From: Coriobacteriales bacterium
GTDB taxonomy: Bacteria > Actinomycetota > Coriobacteriia > Coriobacteriales > UBA8131
Assembly: GCA_031263025.1 (NCBI GenBank)
Contig: JAISGO010000016.1
Coordinates: 28,018 to 92,017, forward strand
Length of the DNA stretch: 64,000 nucleotides
Direction of reading: 5' to 3'
This document shows, in pieces, positions 3,161 through 40,228 of the stretch (the first letter of the stretch is position 1; the number at the start of each line of letters is the position of its first letter). The notes beneath the pieces are model-generated. The model worked only from the letters and a program-made list of their open reading frames with translations. It was not told the DNA's origin and did no database searches. The translations under genes and the position numbers were made by a program.

Positions 3161-4336
3161 ATGGAGAAACTCCTTAAAGCAGACGCCGGCATCCCGGGCT
3201 GGTTGATCGCGGTCTTCGCGGTGGTGGCGGGGGTCTCGGTGGCCAACATCTACTATATCCAGCCCCTGCTCAATCTCGTCAAACTCGAGCTCGGCTTAAA
3301 TGACTTCCAGGTCTCACTGATCTCCCTCTGCAACCAGGGCGGCTATGCCATCGGGCTTTTCCTGATCATCCCCCTGGGCGACCTCCTGCAGCGCAAGGGC
3401 ATCATCTTAGTCAACCTCGGGATTGCTGTAGCGGCGGCTCTGGCGATCTCTTTTGCCCAAAGCGTTGCCCTGGTGGCTTTGGCTTGCCTGGTGCTGGGCG
3501 CCTGTTCGGTCACACCCCAACTGCTGATTCCACTGGCCGCCCAGTGCTCTAGGCCGCCGGATAAGGCCAAGAACATGGGCATCGTCTTGACTGGCCTTTT
3601 GACCGGTATCATCGGCTCGCGGGTGCTCTCTGGGGTTTTCGGCCAGGTCTTGGGTTGGCGTCACGTCTATCTGATAGTATCAGCTTTGATGTTGGCCTGT
3701 GTGCTCTTGATCGCTTTGACCTTGCCCCGAGTGGAAAGGGGTTTTGCCGGCGGCTACCGTCAGCTGATGGCCTCGCTTTTCGCTCTGCCCCGGCGTTTCC
3801 CCATCCTGGTCTCCCATGCCCTGCGCTATGCTTTCTGCTTTGGCTCCCTGCTCGCGATGTGGACCAGCCTGACCTTTAAGCTGGGCGGTGCGCCTTTTTA
3901 CGCCCCGGCGGGCATCATCGGCCTGCTTGGCCTCTGTGGCGTGGCCGGGGCCCTTACCTCCTCGGTGATCGGGCGCTGGGTGCAACGCCTGGGCCAGCGC
4001 CGTTTTAACCTCATCGGCGTCATCTTGATCATGTCCGCCTGGCTCTGTTTGCTGCTCGGTCAAGATGGCTACTCCGGCATCATCGCGGGCATCGTCTTGA
4101 TTGACGTGGGCATGCAGTTCATCCAACTGGGCAACCAGACCGCTGCTTTCGCCCTGGCTCCCGACGCGGTCAACCGGGTCAATACCATCTACATGACGAT
4201 CGGCTTTATCGGCGGGGCTTTGGGCACTTTCTGCTCCGGCGCGGCCTGGCATCTGATTGGCTGGGACGGGGTGGTGCTGGTCGGGCTCATCCTGGCCTGG
4301 GTGGCGCTCATCCTAACCCTCGCCTCGCGCAAGTAG
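3161..4336 (+). CDS. MFS transporter (12-TM type)
   Basis: 391 aa, hydrophobic throughout, with an MFS loop motif PLGDLLQRKGII between TM2 and TM3. Confidence 0.8.
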   Translation: MEKLLKADAGIPGWLIAVFAVVAGVSVANIYYIQPLLNLVKLELGLNDFQVSLISLCNQGGYAIGLFLIIPLGDLLQRKGIILVNLGIAVAAALAISFAQSVALVALACLVLGACSVTPQLLIPLAAQCSRPPDKAKNMGIVLTGLLTGIIGSRVLSGVFGQVLGWRHVYLIVSALMLACVLLIALTLPRVERGFAGGYRQLMASLFALPRRFPILVSHALRYAFCFGSLLAMWTSLTFKLGGAPFYAPAGIIGLLGLCGVAGALTSSVIGRWVQRLGQRRFNLIGVILIMSAWLCLLLGQDGYSGIIAGIVLIDVGMQFIQLGNQTAAFALAPDAVNRVNTIYMTIGFIGGALGTFCSGAAWHLIGWDGVVLVGLILAWVALILTLASRK

Positions 4337-4436
4337 GGTTGGGCGAAAGCCGCCACTTTCTGCCTTAAACCGAATAGAGGTTGAGCCACCTGCTCAGACA
4401 GGTTTCGTCGCATCGCCAAAGGGTCGATGAACGCAG

Positions 4437-4519
4437 GGGTCGCCTGCTCAGACAGGCTTTGCCGCATAAACCGCCGGACTTCCGCTGATCTTTGCGCGGC
4501 TGCAGAATTCGCATTCGAC
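4437..4519. repeat. ~82-bp dispersed repeat, copy L, enclosed by a 17-bp stem (4422-4438 / 4521-4537)
   Basis: GGGTCGCCTGCTCAGACAGGCTTTGCCGCATAAACCGCCGGACTTCCGCTGATCTTTGCGCGGCTGCAGAATTCGCATTCGAC reappears as a reverse complement at 6177-6258 with a few mismatches. A partial copy (CCTGCTCAGACAGG...) lies at 4389-4410. Confidence 0.7.
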
Positions 4520-4554
4520 TCCCTGCGTTCATCGACCTGTGCCAAACGGTGATG

Positions 4555-4563
4555 TGTTATCAT
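4555..4563 (+). promoter_or_regulatory. Candidate extended -10 promoter (TGTTATCAT) placing a TSS at or next to ATG 4572
   Basis: TGn + TATCAT; 8 nt separate the hexamer from ATG 4572, and no SD lies in between (leaderless geometry). Confidence 0.3.
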
Positions 4564-4571
4564 CGTTGGCG

Positions 4572-4619
4572 ATGAGTGATTTCGTCCATATCTCTGTTTG
4601 GCAAAACTGGCGCGTCTAG
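4572..4619 (+). CDS. Candidate 15-codon trp leader peptide MSDFVHISVWQNWRV
   Basis: Own translation, below the 60-aa cutoff of the track. Two Trp codons (4599, 4608) fall in the last six sense codons. The stop overlaps segment 2 of the alternative hairpins. Lies upstream of trpB2. Confidence 0.35.
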   Translation: MSDFVHISVWQNWRV

Positions 4620-4636
4620 CGCCACTACTCATCCCT

Positions 4637-4668
4637 GGCGCCTTTCGGCGCCCTTTCCCTCTTTTCCC
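4637..4668 (+). terminator. Candidate attenuator terminator (GGCGCC-TTTC-GGCGCC followed by CTTTCCCTCTTTTCCC)
   Basis: 6-bp all-GC stem, 4-nt loop and an interrupted T-tract, 80 nt upstream of trpB2. Competing pairings are described in the findings. Confidence 0.4.
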
Positions 4669-4747
4669 ATAGACCTATAAAACCCCTGCAGATACGGCAC
4701 ACCTCTCGTCTCTGTGCCTGTTCTGCGGCTTAGACAATAAGGAGCAG

Positions 4748-6154
4748 ATGATGACTGTCCCCTATAAGTATTACCTCAAGGAAAACGAACTGCCCGAGGC
4801 CTACCTCAACCTACGCGCCTTCATGCGCGAGGCCAGCATTGACCACGACCCGCTGCTTAACCCCGGCAGCGGGCAGCCGGTGGAGCTGGCCGACCTGGAA
4901 CCGGTCTTCTGTAGCGAGCTGGCCCGTCAAGAGCTGGACAACGTTAATCAATATATTGACATTCCCGGTGCGGTGCTCGACTTCTACCGGATGTGTCGGC
5001 CCTCGCCCCTGATCCGGGCTTACTATCTGGAGCGGGTGCTGGGCACCCCGGCCAAGATCTACTACAAGTACGAGGGCAACAATACCTCTGGTTCGCACAA
5101 GCTCAACTCGGCCATTGCCCAGGCCTACTATGCCAAGGCCCAGGGGCTTAAAGGGGTCACCACCGAGACCGGGGCCGGCCAGTGGGGTACCGCTCTGGCC
5201 ATGGCTGGGGCTTTCTTCGACCTAGGCGTGGAGGTCTACATGGTGGGTGCCTCCTATCGCCAGAAACCCTACCGCAAGGCGGTGATGGAGACCTATGGGG
5301 CGAGCATCGTGGCCTCGCCCAGCGACAGCACCCAGGTCGGGCGCAAGATGCTGGCCGACGGGGTGAGCCTGGACGGTTCGCTGGGTTGCGCCATCAGCGA
5401 GGCGATTGAGGTCGCCCTGGCCAGCGGTGGCTCCAAGCGCTACGTGCTGGGCAGCGTGCTCAACCAGGTCCTGCTGCACCAGTCCATCATCGGCCTGGAG
5501 GCCAAGGCCGCTCTGGATGACCTGGGCGAATACCCCGACGTGGTGATCGGCTGCGCTGGCGGCGGCTCCAACCTGGGTGGCATCATCAGCGCTTACATGG
5601 TCGACCGTTTGCAGGGTCAGGCCACCGGCCCGGCGGCGGCTGGACATCAGCCGCCGCGTTTTATCGCGGTGGAGCCGGCCTCTTGTCCGAGCCTGACCCG
5701 GGGGCGCTATGCCTACGACTTCTGCGACACCGGCTGTGTCACCCCGCTGGCTCGGATGTACACCCTGGGCCATGACTTCATGCCCAGCCCCAATCACGCC
5801 GGCGGCCTGCGCTTCCACGGGATGAGCCCGATCCTCTCCAAGCTCTACCACGAGGGTTATCTGGACGAGGCGAGGGCGGTGGAGCAGACTGCGGTCTTTG
5901 AGGCTGCTGAAGCCTTCGCCCGTGCCGAGGGCACCCTACCGGCTCCGGAGAGCTCACATGCCATCAAAGTGGCCATCGATGAGGCTCTGGCCTGCAAGGA
6001 GTCGGGTGAGGCCAAGACCATCCTGTTCAATCTGACCGGCAACGGTTACTTCGACCTGGCTGCCTACGCCGCCTACAACGAGGGCGGCATGGGCGACTAT
6101 ATCCCGACCGAGGCGGATTTGGAGAGGAGTTTCCAGACTATCCCGCAGGTCTAG
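4748..6154 (+). CDS. trpB2: TrpB2-type tryptophan synthase beta-like PLP enzyme
   Basis: 468 aa. YYKYEGNNTSGSHKLNSA (PLP lysine region), TETGAGQWGTALA and GCAGGGSNLGG are typical of the long stand-alone TrpB2 subfamily. AAGGAG SD 5 nt upstream. Confidence 0.85.
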   Translation: MMTVPYKYYLKENELPEAYLNLRAFMREASIDHDPLLNPGSGQPVELADLEPVFCSELARQELDNVNQYIDIPGAVLDFYRMCRPSPLIRAYYLERVLGTPAKIYYKYEGNNTSGSHKLNSAIAQAYYAKAQGLKGVTTETGAGQWGTALAMAGAFFDLGVEVYMVGASYRQKPYRKAVMETYGASIVASPSDSTQVGRKMLADGVSLDGSLGCAISEAIEVALASGGSKRYVLGSVLNQVLLHQSIIGLEAKAALDDLGEYPDVVIGCAGGGSNLGGIISAYMVDRLQGQATGPAAAGHQPPRFIAVEPASCPSLTRGRYAYDFCDTGCVTPLARMYTLGHDFMPSPNHAGGLRFHGMSPILSKLYHEGYLDEARAVEQTAVFEAAEAFARAEGTLPAPESSHAIKVAIDEALACKESGEAKTILFNLTGNGYFDLAAYAAYNEGGMGDYIPTEADLERSFQTIPQV

Positions 6155-6176
6155 CGGAGGGCCGAACGGGTGGTGG

Positions 6177-6258
6177 GTCGAATGCGAGTTCTGCAGCCGC
6201 GCAGTGATTAGCGGAAGTCCGAGGCTTCTGCGGCGAAGTCTGTCTGAGCAGGCGACCC
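6177..6258. repeat. ~82-bp dispersed repeat, copy R (inverted), enclosed by a perfect 19-bp stem (6162-6180 / 6253-6271)
   Basis: Reverse complement of the 4437-4519 element. A further partial copy (GCCTGTCTGAGCAGGCGACCCC) lies at 6329-6350. Confidence 0.7.
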
Positions 6259-6368
6259 ACCACCCGTTCGGCTTGTGTTCCGCCGCCACACATGAGGTTG
6301 CCTTAAGCCATACCCCTTATTTGGAGAAGCCTGTCTGAGCAGGCGACCCCTGTGCCTATAGGCCGGTG

Positions 6369-7103
6369 TCAGATCAGGCCCAGGGCTGCGGGGTAGACCA
6401 CCAGCAGGGTTCCGCTGGCGACCTCGATGATGGCAGGCTGTCCGATCAGCTGGTTACTCACTGCGAGGGAATAGCCGCAGTTCAAGGTGGCCCCATCGAG
6501 TTCGTATTTGAGCCCCTTGATGGATACGCCTTGGGCCGGCCCACCATAGGCGAAGACCGAGACGATGCCCTCGGTAGCGGCCGGAAGCGACAAACTGTCG
6601 TTATGGATGGCGGTGACGATCTGATCATCGGCCACAAGCCAGCCCCGGTCGCCGGCTTCGGCCAGGCTAGCCAAACAGCCCAGGTTGGCTATGGTGTGGT
6701 CGAGGCGCCCGCCGCTTCCGCCGTAGATGCAGAAGCGCCGATAGCCCCGGGCCTGGCCTTGGCGCAGGGCGGCCTTGGTGTCGGTCTGGTCCTTCTCGAC
6801 GGGTAGTTGGACGAGCGGCAAGTCCGCAGGCAGATCCTCCGCGCCTTGCTCAAACTCTGTGAGAGAGTCAAGGTCGCCAACCAGTAGGTCGGCGGAACGC
6901 CCCAGCGTTTGCAGATAGGCCCAGCCGCCGTCGACCGCGATGGTCAGGTCGTCCGGCCCGGGTAGGGGCGGGCTGGCATAGTGGACGCCGGCGCAGACCA
7001 GATAGCAGGTGCCGCTGGGGGCGGCTAAAGAGCGGGCACCGGCCGCCCCCTCTGTTCCAGATTGGCGTCCGGCGTGATGGGGAGCGCTTGCCTCTGGGCT
7101 CAT
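6369..7103 (-). CDS. thiN: Thiamine pyrophosphokinase
   Basis: DLLVGDLDS (GDxDS motif) and GGSGGRLDHTIANL are typical of TPK. The start overlaps the stop of the upstream MFS gene (ATGA at 7100-7103). Confidence 0.8.
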   Translation of the reverse strand: MSPEASAPHHAGRQSGTEGAAGARSLAAPSGTCYLVCAGVHYASPPLPGPDDLTIAVDGGWAYLQTLGRSADLLVGDLDSLTEFEQGAEDLPADLPLVQLPVEKDQTDTKAALRQGQARGYRRFCIYGGSGGRLDHTIANLGCLASLAEAGDRGWLVADDQIVTAIHNDSLSLPAATEGIVSVFAYGGPAQGVSIKGLKYELDGATLNCGYSLAVSNQLIGQPAIIEVASGTLLVVYPAALGLI

Positions 7104-21897: not shown

Positions 21898-21959
21898 AGT
21901 TGGACTGGTTCGGTAACCCGGGTCCACCTTAGGCGGGGAAAGTTCCTCGCCATTTTTTT
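21898..21959 (+). ncRNA. Candidate ~60-nt small RNA (promoter to intrinsic terminator)
   Basis: Defined only by the promoter at 21863-21891 and the terminator at 21932-21959. No ORF with a start codon lies in between. Confidence 0.3.
21932..21959 (+). terminator. Intrinsic terminator GGCGGGG-AAAGTT-CCTCGCC-ATTTTTTT
   Basis: 7-bp stem (6 Watson-Crick pairs + 1 G-U) followed by A and a T7 run. Confidence 0.6.
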
Positions 21960-25997: not shown

Positions 25998-26266
25998 CGC
26001 TCATCTCTGAACGCGGCGATCTCTGCCTCGATCTCATCAGCGCTAAGCTCAATCTCCCGACTCTCCGCGCGCAGGCGCTCGACGACATCCATCATGCGCA
26101 GCTGGTGTAAGATGCGGGCCTGGCGCTCGGGGTCGGCGCCATCGATGTCGATAATCATCTTGGTCGGTATGCCGTTGTTGGTGATGACCACGAAGTTGTC
26201 GAACTTGGCGCTGTCGCAGACCTTCTTGGTCTTGCTCGAAAGATCCTTTACGGTGAAGCTGGTCAT
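25994..26266 (-). CDS. Type II antitoxin partner of the PIN toxin
   Basis: 90 aa, AAGGAG SD, ATGA overlap with vapC. The fold family is not certain from sequence alone. Confidence 0.65.
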   Translation of the reverse strand: MTSFTVKDLSSKTKKVCDSAKFDNFVVITNNGIPTKMIIDIDGADPERQARILHQLRMMDVVERLRAESREIELSADEIEAEIAAFRDER

Positions 26267-39932: not shown

Positions 39933-40228
39933 GTCGATATCCTTTGCTGCCAGAATCCTCGCATGACCTATGCACGCGGAAAATTCTTGACTCTGATGTA
40001 ATTTGATGCTGAACAAGGCCTGCGACGTGAGCGCAAGTAGGCGCAAGCCCAAAGAGGGCCGCGCTCAGGGCACATAGCTTCGACGCAGGAGGGCGCCGCC
40101 TATAAGCTATGCGCTAAAGGTATCGATAATAAGCAGGGGAATAGTTAAGCCCGGCTGCAAGGGAGCGAACCGCGCTAGCAGCCAAGCCAGGCTGCGAAGA
40201 AATGTCTCCTAGAGAAAACATGGCACGT

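What the first reader, a model, noticed from the sequence alone, without database searches (positions are those of the whole stretch)
4555..4747. Leaderless 15-codon Trp-containing leader ORF with three mutually exclusive GC hairpins upstream of trpB2 (classical attenuator logic)
**Seen directly.**
- TGTTATCAT (extended -10) lies at 4555-4563.
- Eight nt later, ATG 4572 opens MSDFVHISVWQNWRV-stop (stop at 4617-4619). It has Trp codons at 4599 and 4608 and no SD, which is the geometry of a leaderless sORF. Such sORFs are common in actinobacteria (established knowledge).
- Four 6-nt GC segments follow. Segment 1 is TGGCGC at 4608-4613 and overlaps the second Trp codon. Segment 2 is GCGCCA at 4619-4624 and abuts the stop codon. 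Segment 3 is TGGCGC at 4636-4641. Segment 4 is GGCGCC at 4647-4652, followed by CTTTCCCTCTTTTCCC.

**Interpretation.** Pairings 1:2, 2:3 and 3:4 are mutually exclusive. A ribosome stalled at Trp would free segment 2 to pair with 3 (antiterminator). Translation to the stop would cover segment 2 and allow 3:4 (terminator). The downstream gene is a stand-alone TrpB2-type enzyme, for which Trp-responsive control is sensible.

**Caveats.** The stems are short and the T-tract is interrupted, so this could be coincidence in GC-rich DNA.
Basis: partly seen in the sequence, partly recalled or inferred. Interest (0 to 1): 0.6.

Follow-up and report, generated by a model that had tools for sequence, protein, structure and literature searches.

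The report
Probable leaderless tryptophan attenuator before trpB2
Upstream of a tryptophan-synthase-like gene in a termite-gut actinobacterium sits a tiny 15-codon reading frame with two tryptophan codons and competing RNA hairpins; it looks like a classic tryptophan-sensing switch that replaced the T-box riboswitch found in its relatives, but this rests on sequence analysis alone.

Summary

**For a real feature**
- The four-segment set of mutually exclusive 6-bp GC hairpins is rare: 2 loci in 64 kb, against about 0.08 clusters expected, both strands counted.
- The "extended -10, then 6-8 nt, then ATG" geometry is a genuine feature of this genome. It occurs 7 times against 2.3 expected, and four of those open long genes. 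About 9 of 36 gene starts look leaderless.
- The gene is a TrpB-like PLP enzyme.
- 116 of 164 orthologous loci carry a T-box upstream. That includes the sister sequence and 7 of 10 members of its Coriobacteriales clade.
- The window has no T-box and no residual similarity to one, so a Trp-responsive leader was lost and replaced.
- Other orthologues lacking a T-box carry clear Trp leader peptides (NWWWR, FFWWR).

**Against**
- The Trp codons are not adjacent, and the second is part of the palindrome.
- Stems are only 6 bp.
- The terminator tail is poor (discriminant -15.9, against +25 to +38 in the relatives that scored above zero).
- No close relative and no RNA data exist.

**Verdict**
This is a plausible leaderless trpL-type attenuator (about 0.45) and a new member of a known kind. 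Streptomyces TrpL1 and TrpL2 are the closest precedents. Interest is moderate.

The parts
4555..4563 (+). Extended -10 promoter element TGTTATCAT (-10 hexamer TATCAT at 4558-4563). The predicted TSS is at 4570-4572.
   Evidence: Read. The pattern TGNTANNNT-N6-8-ATG occurs 7 times in the window against 2.3 expected (P about 0.005), and 4 of the 7 open long ORFs. Orthologue promoters have the same type of -10 box: L161 TGCTATCAT and L166 TGTGTTATAAT. The TSS was not measured.
4572..4619 (+). Leaderless 15-codon ORF MSDFVHISVWQNWRV*, with Trp codons at 4599-4601 (W10) and 4608-4610 (W13) and stop TAG at 4617-4619.
   Evidence: There is no SD upstream. The ATG lies 8 nt after the -10 hexamer, as at trpS (7 nt) and other genes.
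4608..4624 (+). Hairpin 1:2 (UGGCGC-GUCUA-GCGCCA, -11.4 kcal/mol). Segment 1 contains the W13 codon, and the stop codon lies in the loop and at the first base of segment 2.
   Evidence: One search gives the energy. One search shows rarity (3 matches in the window against 0.19 expected). One search gives pair probability of about 1 in the free leader.
4619..4641 (+). Candidate antiterminator 2:3 (GCGCCA with an 11-nt loop and UGGCGC, -9.2 kcal/mol). It excludes both 1:2 and 3:4.
   Evidence: Its equilibrium probability in the free RNA is about 0.002, so it could form only kinetically, with a ribosome covering segment 1. That step is inferred.
4637..4652 (+). Hairpin 3:4 (GGCGCC-UUUC-GGCGCC, -11.6 to -12.4 kcal/mol), the candidate terminator stem.
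4653..4668 (+). Interrupted U tract CUUUCCCUCUUUUCCC. It is part of a very C-rich, G-poor stretch (4628-4707).
   Evidence: T-score is 1.71 and the discriminant is -15.9, against T-scores of 4.4-5.1 and discriminants of +25 to +38 for the orthologue terminators that scored above zero. The C-minus-G excess lies at the 99.8th percentile of all windows.
4686..4728 (+). Third hairpin, a 15-bp interrupted stem (-18.8 kcal/mol) between the attenuator and the trpB2 ribosome-binding site. Its role is unknown.
4589..4599 (+). sORF codons 6-10 (UAUCUCUGUUU), predicted to pair with the trpB2 SD and start region at 4742-4753. This is a possible translational layer.
   Evidence: Pair probabilities are 0.74-0.92 in the full-leader fold. 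The duplex energy of -12.4 is not unusual, being matched by 21% of shuffles. The evidence is weak.
4739..4744 (+). Shine-Dalgarno AAGGAG of trpB2.
   Evidence: The AAGGAGCAG motif is shared with sister locus L161.
4748..6154 (+). The regulated gene, trpB2 (TrpB-like PLP-dependent enzyme, 468 aa).
   Evidence: NF009057 at 618.7 bits and TIGR01415 at 543.5 bits.
4417..4538 (.). Left copy of a dispersed ~82-bp repeat nested in its own 17-18-bp stem. It marks the upstream boundary of the trpB2 transcription unit.
6154..6285 (.). Right, inverted copy of the same repeat, nested in a different complementary stem. It lies downstream of trpB2.
   Evidence: (long hairpin).

Best explanation
The region is most likely a ribosome-mediated (leader-peptide) tryptophan attenuator of the leaderless actinobacterial type. 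It controls the stand-alone trpB2 gene of a termite-gut Coriobacteriia genome.

**Proposed mechanism**
1. An extended -10 promoter (4555-4563) starts the transcript at or 1-2 nt before AUG 4572. 70S ribosomes then translate a 15-codon ORF without an SD.
2. When charged tRNA-Trp is plentiful, the ribosome runs to the UAG at 4617 and covers segment 2 (4619-4624). Hairpin 3:4 (4637-4652) forms and transcription is attenuated at or after the CUUUCCCUCUUUU tract.
3. If no ribosome loads, 1:2 and 3:4 both form, with the same result.
4. When tRNA-Trp is scarce, the ribosome stalls with W10 or W13 in the A site. Segment 1 is then buried while segment 2 stays free, so 2:3 forms first and blocks 3:4. 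RNA polymerase reads on into trpB2.

**Evolutionary origin**
The element replaced an ancestral Trp-specific T-box.

**Shown**
- The sequence features and their statistical rarity.
- The leaderless promoter geometry as a property of this genome.
- The loss of the T-box.

**Inferred**
- The TSS.
- Translation of the ORF.
- Stalling at the Trp codons.
- Kinetic formation of 2:3.
- Termination at a weak tail.
For: 1. All features were verified.
2. Leaderless geometry:
   - TGNTANNNT-N6-8-ATG occurs 7 times against 2.3 expected.
   - Four of these open ORFs of 164-301 aa.
   - About 9 of 36 gene starts, trpS among them, have a -10 box 5-8 nt before the ATG and no SD.
3. The hairpin chain is rare: 0.08 clusters expected per window, with only one other locus. 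Each palindrome is expected about 0.2 times.
4. Energies are 1:2 -11.4, 2:3 -9.2 and 3:4 -12.4 kcal/mol. This ordering (terminator more stable than antiterminator) is the same as in the E. coli trp attenuator, from my own knowledge.
5. Geometry:
   - The stop codon abuts segment 2.
   - W13 lies in segment 1, and W10 lies 7 nt before it.
   - Segment 3 starts 17 nt after the stop, outside a terminating ribosome.
6. Trp-responsive RNA control is the norm for this orthologue group:
   - A T-box motif lies within 600 nt upstream in 116 of 164 loci.
   - Rfam T-box hits with a UGG specifier occur in the closest Coriobacteriales loci.
   - Trp leader peptides with terminators occur in L019 (NWWWR) and L147 (FFWWR) (L147's terminator scored +38). 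L064 carries a matching NNWWWR leader peptide, but its terminator was not examined.
7. The window's TrpB2 is sister to T-box-bearing L161 (support 99/96). It sits inside a clade where 7 of 10 members have a T-box. The window itself has no T-box and no residual similarity to one.
8. Precedents:
   - S. lividans has leaderless TrpL1 (MFAHSTRNWWWTAHPAAH) and TrpL2 (MMTRTCTQLWRAA). TrpL2 has one Trp, two hairpins and no U-rich tail (PMC8079986).
   - Actinobacterial trp attenuators use self-complementary GC triples, gGCC-rGCy-GGCC (PMC1262725).
Against: 1. The candidate terminator is weak.
   - It has a 6-bp stem and the tail CUUUCCCUCUUUUCC.
   - Its discriminant is -15.9 and T-score 1.71. The T-box and leader-peptide terminators of orthologues that scored above zero give +25 to +38 and T-scores of 4.4-5.1.
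   - The few canonical terminators in this window have U runs of at least 4 directly after the stem.
2. The two Trp codons are separated (W-Q-N-W). W13 is simply the in-frame UGG of the palindrome UGGCGC, so only W10 is independent evidence.
   - About 6-9% of sORFs in orthologue leaders carry 2 or more Trp by chance.
3. The 2:3 helix is only 6 bp with an 11-nt loop. Its equilibrium probability is 0.002.
4. A ribosome stalled at W13 might also cover segment 2, depending on the footprint edge assumed.
5. Three of the nine closest orthologous loci lack a T-box and show no obvious replacement (L162, L165, L166). Losing the T-box therefore does not require a substitute.
6. Leaderless sORFs can be incidental. 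A second one, with no amino-acid bias, heads another long leader at 40221.
7. There is no conservation or expression evidence.
   - The closest TrpB2 is 76% identical and the closest neighbouring MFS protein 63%.
   - A single DNA run holds the locus and no RNA run does.
   - The contigs show no variants in the leader.
Confidence: 0.45

Rival explanations
1. Incidental leaderless sORF in a structured 5' UTR.

The promoter and leaderless translation of the 15-codon ORF are real. They would be a by-product of a transcript that happens to begin with AUG in a genome with pervasive leaderless initiation.

The GC hairpins would be a locally duplicated palindromic motif, acting as a stabiliser, a processing site or nothing at all. 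On this reading trpB2 is not regulated by Trp through this ORF.
For: - A second leaderless sORF, with no amino-acid bias, heads the SSS-transporter leader at 40221.
- The hairpin units look like a ~28-nt duplication, so exclusivity comes for free.
- W13 is part of the palindrome.
- The terminator is weak.
- L162, L165 and L166 show that trpB2 orthologues can lack any recognisable attenuator.
- Pervasive translation of leaderless sORFs is documented in mycobacteria (PMC9094748, abstract only).
Against: - It does not explain several features coinciding in the leader of a Trp gene whose relatives are almost all Trp-regulated at the RNA level. The stop codon sits in the loop of hairpin 1:2, a Trp codon sits in segment 1, another lies 7 nt upstream, and the whole hairpin chain is rare.
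- A 177-nt leader with z = -3.67 is unusually long in a genome where many genes have no leader at all.
Confidence: 0.25
2. Same sensor, different output.

Ribosome stalling on the leaderless Trp sORF would control trpB2 in one of two other ways:
- Translationally, because sORF codons 6-10 pair with the trpB2 SD and AUGs, and a stalled ribosome would free them. This is the mechanism of the mycobacterial poly-Cys LL-sORFs.
- Through Rho-dependent termination on the exceptionally C-rich, G-poor tract at 4628-4707, rather than through an intrinsic terminator.
For: - The full-leader fold pairs 4589-4599 with 4742-4753 at probability 0.74-0.92. SD and AUG unpaired probabilities are mostly 0.04-0.14, apart from U4749 (0.95) and G4753 (0.44), with a mean of 0.17 over 4742-4753.
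- RBS exposure is lower than in 95% of shuffles of the first 36 nt.
- The C-minus-G excess lies at the 99.8th percentile.
- Canonical terminators are very rare in this window: 4 in 64 kb and none on the minus strand.
- Canestrari et al. show an LL-sORF that unmasks an RBS when ribosomes stall (10.1101/834739).
- Seliverstov et al. proposed Rho for actinobacterial leader peptides without terminators (PMC1262725).
Against: - The sORF-RBS duplex energy (-12.4) is matched by 21% of shuffles and 12% of random genomic 49-mers.
- It closes a ~140-nt multiloop and is absent from the centroid structure.
- I could find no simple switch by which stalling would hide the C-rich tract from Rho. Uncoupling would, if anything, increase Rho action, which is the wrong sign.
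Confidence: 0.12
3. DNA operators rather than RNA hairpins.

TGGCGC-N5-GCGCCA (4608-4624) and GGCGCC-N4-GGCGCC (4637-4652) would be two binding sites for a dimeric transcription factor. The factor would act as a roadblock downstream of the promoter.
For: - There are two perfect 6-bp inverted repeats with similar half-sites, about 28 bp apart and rare in the window.
- Palindromes are equally DNA features.
Against: - The sites lie at about +37 to +81, which is unusual for repression.
- The spacers differ (5 against 4 nt).
- The other two TGGCGC...GCGCCA matches have different spacers, and the one examined (26121) lies in coding DNA.
- No regulator gene is adjacent: the neighbours are an MFS transporter and thiamine diphosphokinase.
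- It does not use the sORF.
Confidence: 0.1
4. Pure coincidence in GC-rich DNA left over after the T-box was lost and repeat elements were inserted. On this reading there is no promoter, no translated sORF and no function.
For: - Stems are short and the features were selected post hoc.
- The region is bounded by a dispersed repeat.
Against: - The rarity statistics.
- The fold z-score.
- The promoter matches real leaderless gene starts.
- trpB2 needs some promoter, and no other one is found in 4000-6600.
Confidence: 0.05

Closest known systems
Leaderless Trp leader peptides of Streptomyces (S. lividans TK24 TrpL1 upstream of trpE, TrpL2 upstream of trpS; PMC8079986) and the S. venezuelae and Corynebacterium trp attenuators (PMC1262725)
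   Same: - Same phylum (Actinomycetota).
- The leader ORF is transcribed without a 5' UTR and is 13-18 codons long, with Trp codons near the C-terminus followed by Arg (…LWRAA*, compared with …NWRV* here).
- Two GC-rich hairpins lie ahead of a monocistronic Trp-related gene.
- Self-complementary GC motifs are used for the competing helices.
- TrpL2 likewise has few Trp codons (one) and no U-rich tail.
   Different: - Different class (Coriobacteriia) and a different regulated gene (stand-alone trpB2).
- The Trp codons are separated (W-Q-N-W), not tandem as in TrpL1 and the Corynebacterium leaders.
- Stems are only 6 bp.
- No sequence homology was shown.
- The TSS and regulation are unmeasured here.
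E. coli trpL attenuator (classical four-segment model; Rfam Trp_leader RF00513)
   Same: - A 14-15-codon leader with Trp at codon 10 onward, followed by Arg.
- Segments 1:2, 2:3 and 3:4 are mutually exclusive.
- The stop codon lies just before segment 2.
   Different: - No SD (leaderless).
- No Rfam hit.
- A much weaker terminator: a 6-bp stem and an interrupted U tract, against a long U run.
- The Trp codons are not adjacent.
Trp-specific T-box riboswitch (RF00230) upstream of trpB2 orthologues
   Same: - It regulates the same orthologous gene and responds to the same signal, uncharged against charged tRNA-Trp.
- It uses the same output logic, terminator against antiterminator.
   Different: - Entirely different sensor: direct tRNA binding against ribosome stalling.
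- It is absent from the window.
- It is present in the sister locus L161 and in 116 of 164 orthologous loci.
Mycobacterial poly-Cys leaderless sORF attenuators ('Cys ribulon', Canestrari et al., 10.1101/834739)
   Same: - A leaderless sORF is the first cistron.
- Its regulatory codons match the pathway of the downstream gene.
- The fold hints that the sORF RNA pairs with the downstream RBS.
   Different: - Those act translationally and have at least 2 consecutive regulatory codons.
- Here the codons are separated, and the RBS pairing is not statistically supported.

Membership tests
Ribosome-mediated leader-peptide transcription attenuator (trpL type) | A short ORF upstream of a Trp-pathway gene with regulatory Trp codons near its end | tested here: met
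   The 15-codon ORF has W10 and W13 upstream of a TrpB-like enzyme. The codons are not tandem, and W13 is part of the palindrome.
Ribosome-mediated leader-peptide transcription attenuator (trpL type) | The leader ORF is translated (SD or leaderless start at the TSS) | tested here: inconclusive
   The geometry is identical to that of real leaderless genes in this genome. The TSS and translation cannot be measured, because no RNA run holds the locus.
Ribosome-mediated leader-peptide transcription attenuator (trpL type) | Mutually exclusive antiterminator and terminator helices, positioned so that ribosome location selects between them | tested here: met
   1:2, 2:3 and 3:4 exist with energies of -11.4, -9.2 and -12.4. 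The chain is rare. The spacing is compatible with ribosome footprints. This is in silico evidence only.
Ribosome-mediated leader-peptide transcription attenuator (trpL type) | A functional intrinsic terminator (GC stem plus U tract) | tested here: not met
   The discriminant is -15.9 and the T-score 1.71. Orthologue terminators that scored above zero give +25 to +38. The discriminant is E. coli-trained, and Streptomyces TrpL2 also lacks a U tract (PMC8079986). This lowers the claim but does not exclude it.
Ribosome-mediated leader-peptide transcription attenuator (trpL type) | Conservation of the ORF, the Trp codons and the pairings (covariation) in related genomes | not testable with these tools
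   The closest TrpB2 is 76% identical and carries a T-box.
Ribosome-mediated leader-peptide transcription attenuator (trpL type) | Read-through responds to Trp supply and to the Trp codons | not testable with these tools
   This needs an experiment.
T-box riboswitch (RF00230) | Stem I with a specifier loop, and the conserved T-box sequence (GGUGGNACCGCG) in an antiterminator | tested here: not met
   No T-box hit at E<=10 in 4000-6600. There is no motif, and alignment scores to T-box leaders equal those of shuffles.
Rfam Trp_leader (RF00513) and any other Rfam cis-regulatory family | A covariance-model match | tested here: not met
   Searches gave only sub-threshold chance hits (mir-610, CRISPR-DR28, Histone3) in the region.
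Leaderless sORF translational attenuator (mycobacterial Cys-ribulon type) | A leaderless sORF with consecutive regulatory codons, whose RNA pairs with and masks the downstream RBS | tested here: inconclusive
   The leaderless geometry is met. The codons are not consecutive. The predicted 11-bp sORF-RBS helix has probability 0.74-0.92, but its energy is not significant.
TRAP-mediated trp attenuation (Bacillus type) | 9-11 (G/U)AG triplets spaced by 2-3 nt in the leader | tested here: not met
   Direct reading of 4572-4747 shows only isolated GAG and UAG triplets.

The most novel reading that the evidence does not exclude
Within one Coriobacteriales clade, a Trp T-box riboswitch was wholly replaced by an unrelated leader carrying a leaderless Trp-sensing sORF attenuator. 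There is no residual sequence similarity between the two.

The output of the new element would not rely on a canonical U-tract terminator. It could be factor-assisted termination at a short GC hairpin followed by a C-rich tract, combined with RBS masking by the sORF RNA.

This would be a caught-in-the-act case of turnover between two tRNA-charging sensors at the same gene. It would also extend leaderless 'ribulon'-type control to Coriobacteriia and to tryptophan.
Probability: 0.25. Interest if true: 0.55.

Novelty: new member of a known kind. Interest (0 to 1): 0.4.

Why it matters
**What it would add if real**
- It would be the first leader-peptide attenuator described in Coriobacteriia, as far as I know. 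That class consists of gut actinobacteria with almost no experimental RNA biology.
- It would be a clean example of regulatory turnover. The same orthologous gene is controlled by a T-box in most Firmicutes and Coriobacteriales, by SD-led WWW leader peptides in Bacteroidales, and here by a leaderless W-x-x-W leader.
- It supports the idea from mycobacteria that abundant leaderless initiation makes it easy to evolve sORF-based amino-acid sensors.

**Practical points**
- It flags that annotation pipelines will miss such leaders.
- It also suggests that trpB2 in this organism is probably still a Trp-starvation-induced gene, for example for indole salvage in the termite gut.

**Limits**
The mechanism class itself is textbook, so a specialist would be only mildly surprised.

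Tried and rejected
I could not scan the rest of this genome for T-boxes, other trp genes or further copies of the leader.

**Searches for close relatives, to test conservation**
- Genome contigs gave a best hit of 72%.
- Metagenome contigs gave a best hit of 68%.
- The 5.8-billion-protein search gave 76% for TrpB2 and 63% for the neighbouring MFS protein.
- An exact look-up of the window protein found nothing.
- None of these is close enough for nucleotide-level comparison of the leader.

**Expression evidence**
- Only one DNA metagenome run (termite gut) holds the locus, and no RNA run does.
- Its contigs show the leader once, without variants.
- One low-depth contig gives a joint from 4623 to 4797, at 80% likeness with a 25-nt side. 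I treat it as spurious.

**Decayed T-box hypothesis**
- I suspected that cgttggcgatgagtga was a remnant of Stem I (cgttgatgaggaag).
- I rejected this. There is no Rfam hit, and local alignment scores equal those of shuffles.

**Other rejected leads**
- The Phascolarctobacterium 'RFWQW' and 'MWPWCR' sORFs found are out-of-frame artefacts inside an upstream membrane-protein gene.
- A TRAP-type triplet array is not present.
- I considered TGGCGC-N9-GCGCCA at 26121, upstream of trpS, as a shared operator. It lies inside the divergent gene's coding sequence and has a different spacer, so it is probably chance.
- The sORF-RBS duplex as a statistically supported feature is not significant.
- Earlier scan notes on the same sequence added no independent evidence.
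Full report
**1. The observation**

The sequence is exactly as described.
- TGTTATCAT lies at 4555-4563.
- ATG 4572 lies 8 nt later, with no Shine-Dalgarno, and opens MSDFVHISVWQNWRV*.
- The Trp codons are at 4599 and 4608, and the stop is at 4617-4619.
- The four GC segments are at 4608-4613, 4619-4624, 4636-4641 and 4647-4652, followed by CTTTCCCTCTTTTCCC.
- The gene at 4748-6154 is a TrpB-like PLP enzyme (NF009057, 618.7 bits against a cutoff of 366; TIGR01415, 543.5 bits).

The structure is more than chance.
- Each of the two palindromes is expected about 0.2 times per 64 kb.
- A chain of three mutually exclusive perfect 6-bp hairpins occurs at only two loci in the window. Dinucleotide shuffles give a mean of 0.08 clusters.
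- The leader folds with z = -3.67.

One qualification applies. All four segments share the self-complementary core GGCGCC, and the two hairpin units resemble a ~28-nt duplication. "Three mutually exclusive pairings" is therefore really "two neighbouring hairpins with the same palindromic stem". W13 (UGG of UGGCGC) comes with the palindrome.

**2. Where it comes from, and which comparisons are possible**

- The only public run holding the stretch is a termite-gut DNA metagenome. No RNA run holds it.
- The closest TrpB2 proteins are Coriobacteriales MAG proteins at 72-76% identity.
- The neighbouring MFS transporter has no relative above 63%.
- Nucleotide-level conservation and covariation therefore cannot be tested.
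- The contigs of the run show the leader once, with no variants.

**3. The promoter and leaderless start**

- About 9 of 36 gene starts in the window have a TANNNT box ending 5-8 nt before the start codon and no SD. They include trpS (TGGCATAAT, 7 nt, ATG 26372) and the MFS gene just upstream (TACCAT, 7 nt, ATG 3161).
- The stricter pattern TGNTANNNT-N6-8-ATG occurs 7 times against 2.3 expected (P about 0.005).
  - Four of these open ORFs of 164-301 aa.
  - One is internal to the MFS gene.
  - Two open short ORFs at the head of long leaders, this one and another at 40221.
- Promoters of orthologous trpB2 genes have the same type of -10 box: L161 TGCTATCAT and L166 TGTGTTATAAT.
- Earlier notes of this scan report the same geometry elsewhere in the genome. 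I confirmed it only within this window.

A TSS at 4570-4572 and leaderless translation of the sORF are therefore likely. I put this at roughly 0.7. Neither was measured.

**4. How the gene family is regulated**

- A T-box motif lies within 600 nt upstream in 116 of 164 orthologous loci.
- Rfam confirms T-boxes in Firmicutes loci and in four of the closest Coriobacteriales loci. They have a UGG (Trp) specifier and strong terminators (sequences).
- Some orthologues without a T-box carry clear Trp leader peptides followed by terminator hairpins and a U run. These are L019 (…HSNWWWRPF…) and L147 (…AFFWWRSF…) (L147 scored +38). L064 has a matching …NNWWWR… leader peptide, but I did not examine its terminator.
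- Apparent 'RFWQW' peptides in Phascolarctobacterium loci are artefacts inside a coding gene.

In a maximum-likelihood tree, the window's TrpB2 is sister to T-box-bearing L161 (support 99/96). It is nested in a Coriobacteriales clade (100/99) in which 7 of 10 members have a T-box. The window has no T-box, and its leader has no similarity to T-box leaders beyond the AAGGAGCAG at the ribosome-binding site.

The ancestral T-box was therefore lost and the leader replaced. Three of the nine closest loci (L162, L165, L166) also lack a T-box and show no obvious substitute. Loss alone does not prove replacement by another sensor.

**5. Does the attenuator logic work?**

Energies are 1:2 -11.4, 2:3 -9.2 and 3:4 -12.4 kcal/mol.
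- In the free RNA, 1:2 and 3:4 form with probability about 1 and 2:3 with probability 0.002. This is the "off" state.
- As in the classical model, the antiterminator could win only kinetically.

Assume a ribosome buries about 12-15 nt downstream of the first A-site base (established knowledge from toeprinting and profiling).
- A stall at W10 covers segment 1 and leaves segment 2 free.
- A stall at W13 covers segment 1 and reaches the edge of segment 2.
- A ribosome at the stop covers segment 2 but not segment 3.

The geometry therefore gives the right sign, with starvation leading to 2:3 and read-through. It resembles E. coli trpL: 14 codons, W10-W11-R, stop just before segment 2 (my own knowledge).

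Actinobacterial trp attenuators are reported to use self-complementary GC triples for the competing helices (PMC1262725).

**6. Weak points**

- The 3:4 hairpin with its tail CUUUCCCUCUUUUCC scores -15.9 on the d'Aubenton-Carafa-type discriminant, with a T-score of 1.71. The T-box and leader-peptide terminators of L161, L163, L002 and L147 score +25 to +38, with T-scores of 4.4-5.1.
- Canonical terminators are very rare in this window: four in 64 kb and none on the minus strand. Most termination here must be non-canonical. S. lividans TrpL2 is described as leaderless with two hairpins and no U-rich tail (PMC8079986).
- The stretch 4628-4707 is among the most C-rich and G-poor in the window (99.8th percentile). 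It looks like a Rho-loading site, but I could not devise a Rho-based switch with the right sign.
- The full-leader fold predicts that sORF codons 6-10 (4589-4599) pair with the trpB2 SD and AUGs (4742-4753) at probability 0.74-0.92. This parallels the mycobacterial poly-Cys leaderless sORFs, where stalled ribosomes unmask the downstream RBS (10.1101/834739). The duplex is not statistically unusual, however.
- Only W10 is independent of the palindrome. Also, 6-9% of random sORFs in orthologue leaders have 2 or more Trp.

**7. Verdict**

| Reading | Confidence |
|---|---|
| Leaderless trpL-type ribosome-mediated Trp attenuator that took over from a T-box | about 0.45 |
| Same sensor with a translational or factor-dependent output | about 0.12 |
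| Incidental leaderless sORF in a structured leader | about 0.25 |
| Palindromes as DNA operators | about 0.10 |
| Pure chance | about 0.05 |

The closest known systems are the leaderless TrpL1 and TrpL2 leaders of Streptomyces (PMC8079986) and the Corynebacterium and Streptomyces trp attenuators (PMC1262725). If real, this is a new member of a known kind.

Its interest lies in three things: the T-box-to-leader-peptide turnover at one orthologous gene, the new taxonomic class, and the non-canonical terminator.

**8. Surroundings**

- The trpB2 unit is bracketed by inverted copies of a ~82-bp repeat, each nested in its own and different complementary stem: 4417-4434/4521-4538 and about 6162-6180/6253-6271.
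- The same core occurs on at least six other contigs of the run, at the same depth. At least one has yet another pair of complementary flanks.
- This fits an element that inserts into hairpin loops, for example terminators, or one that carries a covarying stem.
- The left copy ends 17 nt before the promoter, which fits trpB2 being an independent transcription unit.

Noticed in passing
window 4417-4538 and 6154-6285 (partial copies near 4385-4405 and 6316-6349): A dispersed ~82-bp repeat (core TCGCCTGCTCAGACAGGCTT…GCATTCGAC) brackets trpB2 in inverted orientation. Each copy sits inside a different but perfectly complementary 15-19-bp stem.

Contigs of the same metagenome run, at the same depth, hold at least 6 more copies. 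One has a third, different complementary flank pair (…CCATTCGACACTGCT / AGCAGTGTCGAATGG…).

It looks like a MITE-like element that inserts into hairpin loops, or a structured element with a covarying stem.
   Followed up: partly
loci L001-L169 (upstream of the trpB2 orthologues): 116 of 164 orthologous trpB2 loci carry a T-box motif within 600 nt upstream. Rfam confirms Trp (UGG) specifiers, including in Coriobacteriales MAGs. Classical terminator-type T-boxes therefore do occur in this actinobacterial class.
   Followed up: partly
L019 2249-2317, L064 and L147 2208-2270: Clear SD-led Trp leader peptides lie upstream of trpB2 orthologues that lack a T-box: MRQPMAHSNWWWRPFDKKEGRA in L019, …NNWWWR… in L064 and MKNRNCIAFFWWRSFTGKLW in L147. 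L019 and L147 are followed by terminator hairpins with a U run (L147 scored +38). L064's downstream region was not examined.
   Followed up: partly
window 40237-40114 (minus strand): A second extended -10 (TGTTACAAT) lies 7 nt before an ATG (40221). That ATG opens a 35-codon ORF (MFSLGDISSQPGLAASAVRSLAAGLNYSPAYYRYL) at the head of the ~290-nt leader of the SSS-transporter gene. This is another candidate leaderless upstream ORF, with no obvious amino-acid bias.
   Followed up: partly
window, gene starts at 1190(-), 3161, 8554(-), 23992(-), 26372, 42574(-), 45809(-), 47650(-), 50264 and 44837(-): About a quarter of gene starts have a TANNNT box 5-8 nt before the start codon and no SD. Leaderless mRNAs appear to be common in this Coriobacteriia genome.
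   Followed up: yes
whole window: Only four hairpin-plus-U-tract terminators pass a standard discriminant in 64 kb (62191, 19898, 12283, 21932). All are on the + strand. Most genes must end by non-canonical or factor-dependent termination.
   Followed up: partly
window 4628-4707 (+): An exceptionally C-rich, G-poor stretch (34 C against 11 G in 80 nt, at the 99.8th percentile of the window) lies between the sORF and trpB2. It resembles a Rho-loading site.
   Followed up: partly
window 21901-21947 (+): The only Rfam hit above the gathering score in the window is DUF3800-XI RNA (39.4 bits).
   Followed up: no
window 4748-6154: The window's TrpB2 sits on a long terminal branch (0.32, against 0.14 for its sister L161). 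This suggests accelerated evolution after the change of regulatory region.
   Followed up: no
window 4623 to 4797: One low-depth contig (5.5x, 1307 nt) of the run joins 4623 to 4797, skipping 173 nt, at 80% likeness with only 25 nt on one side. It is probably another organism or chance, and was not resolved.
   Followed up: no
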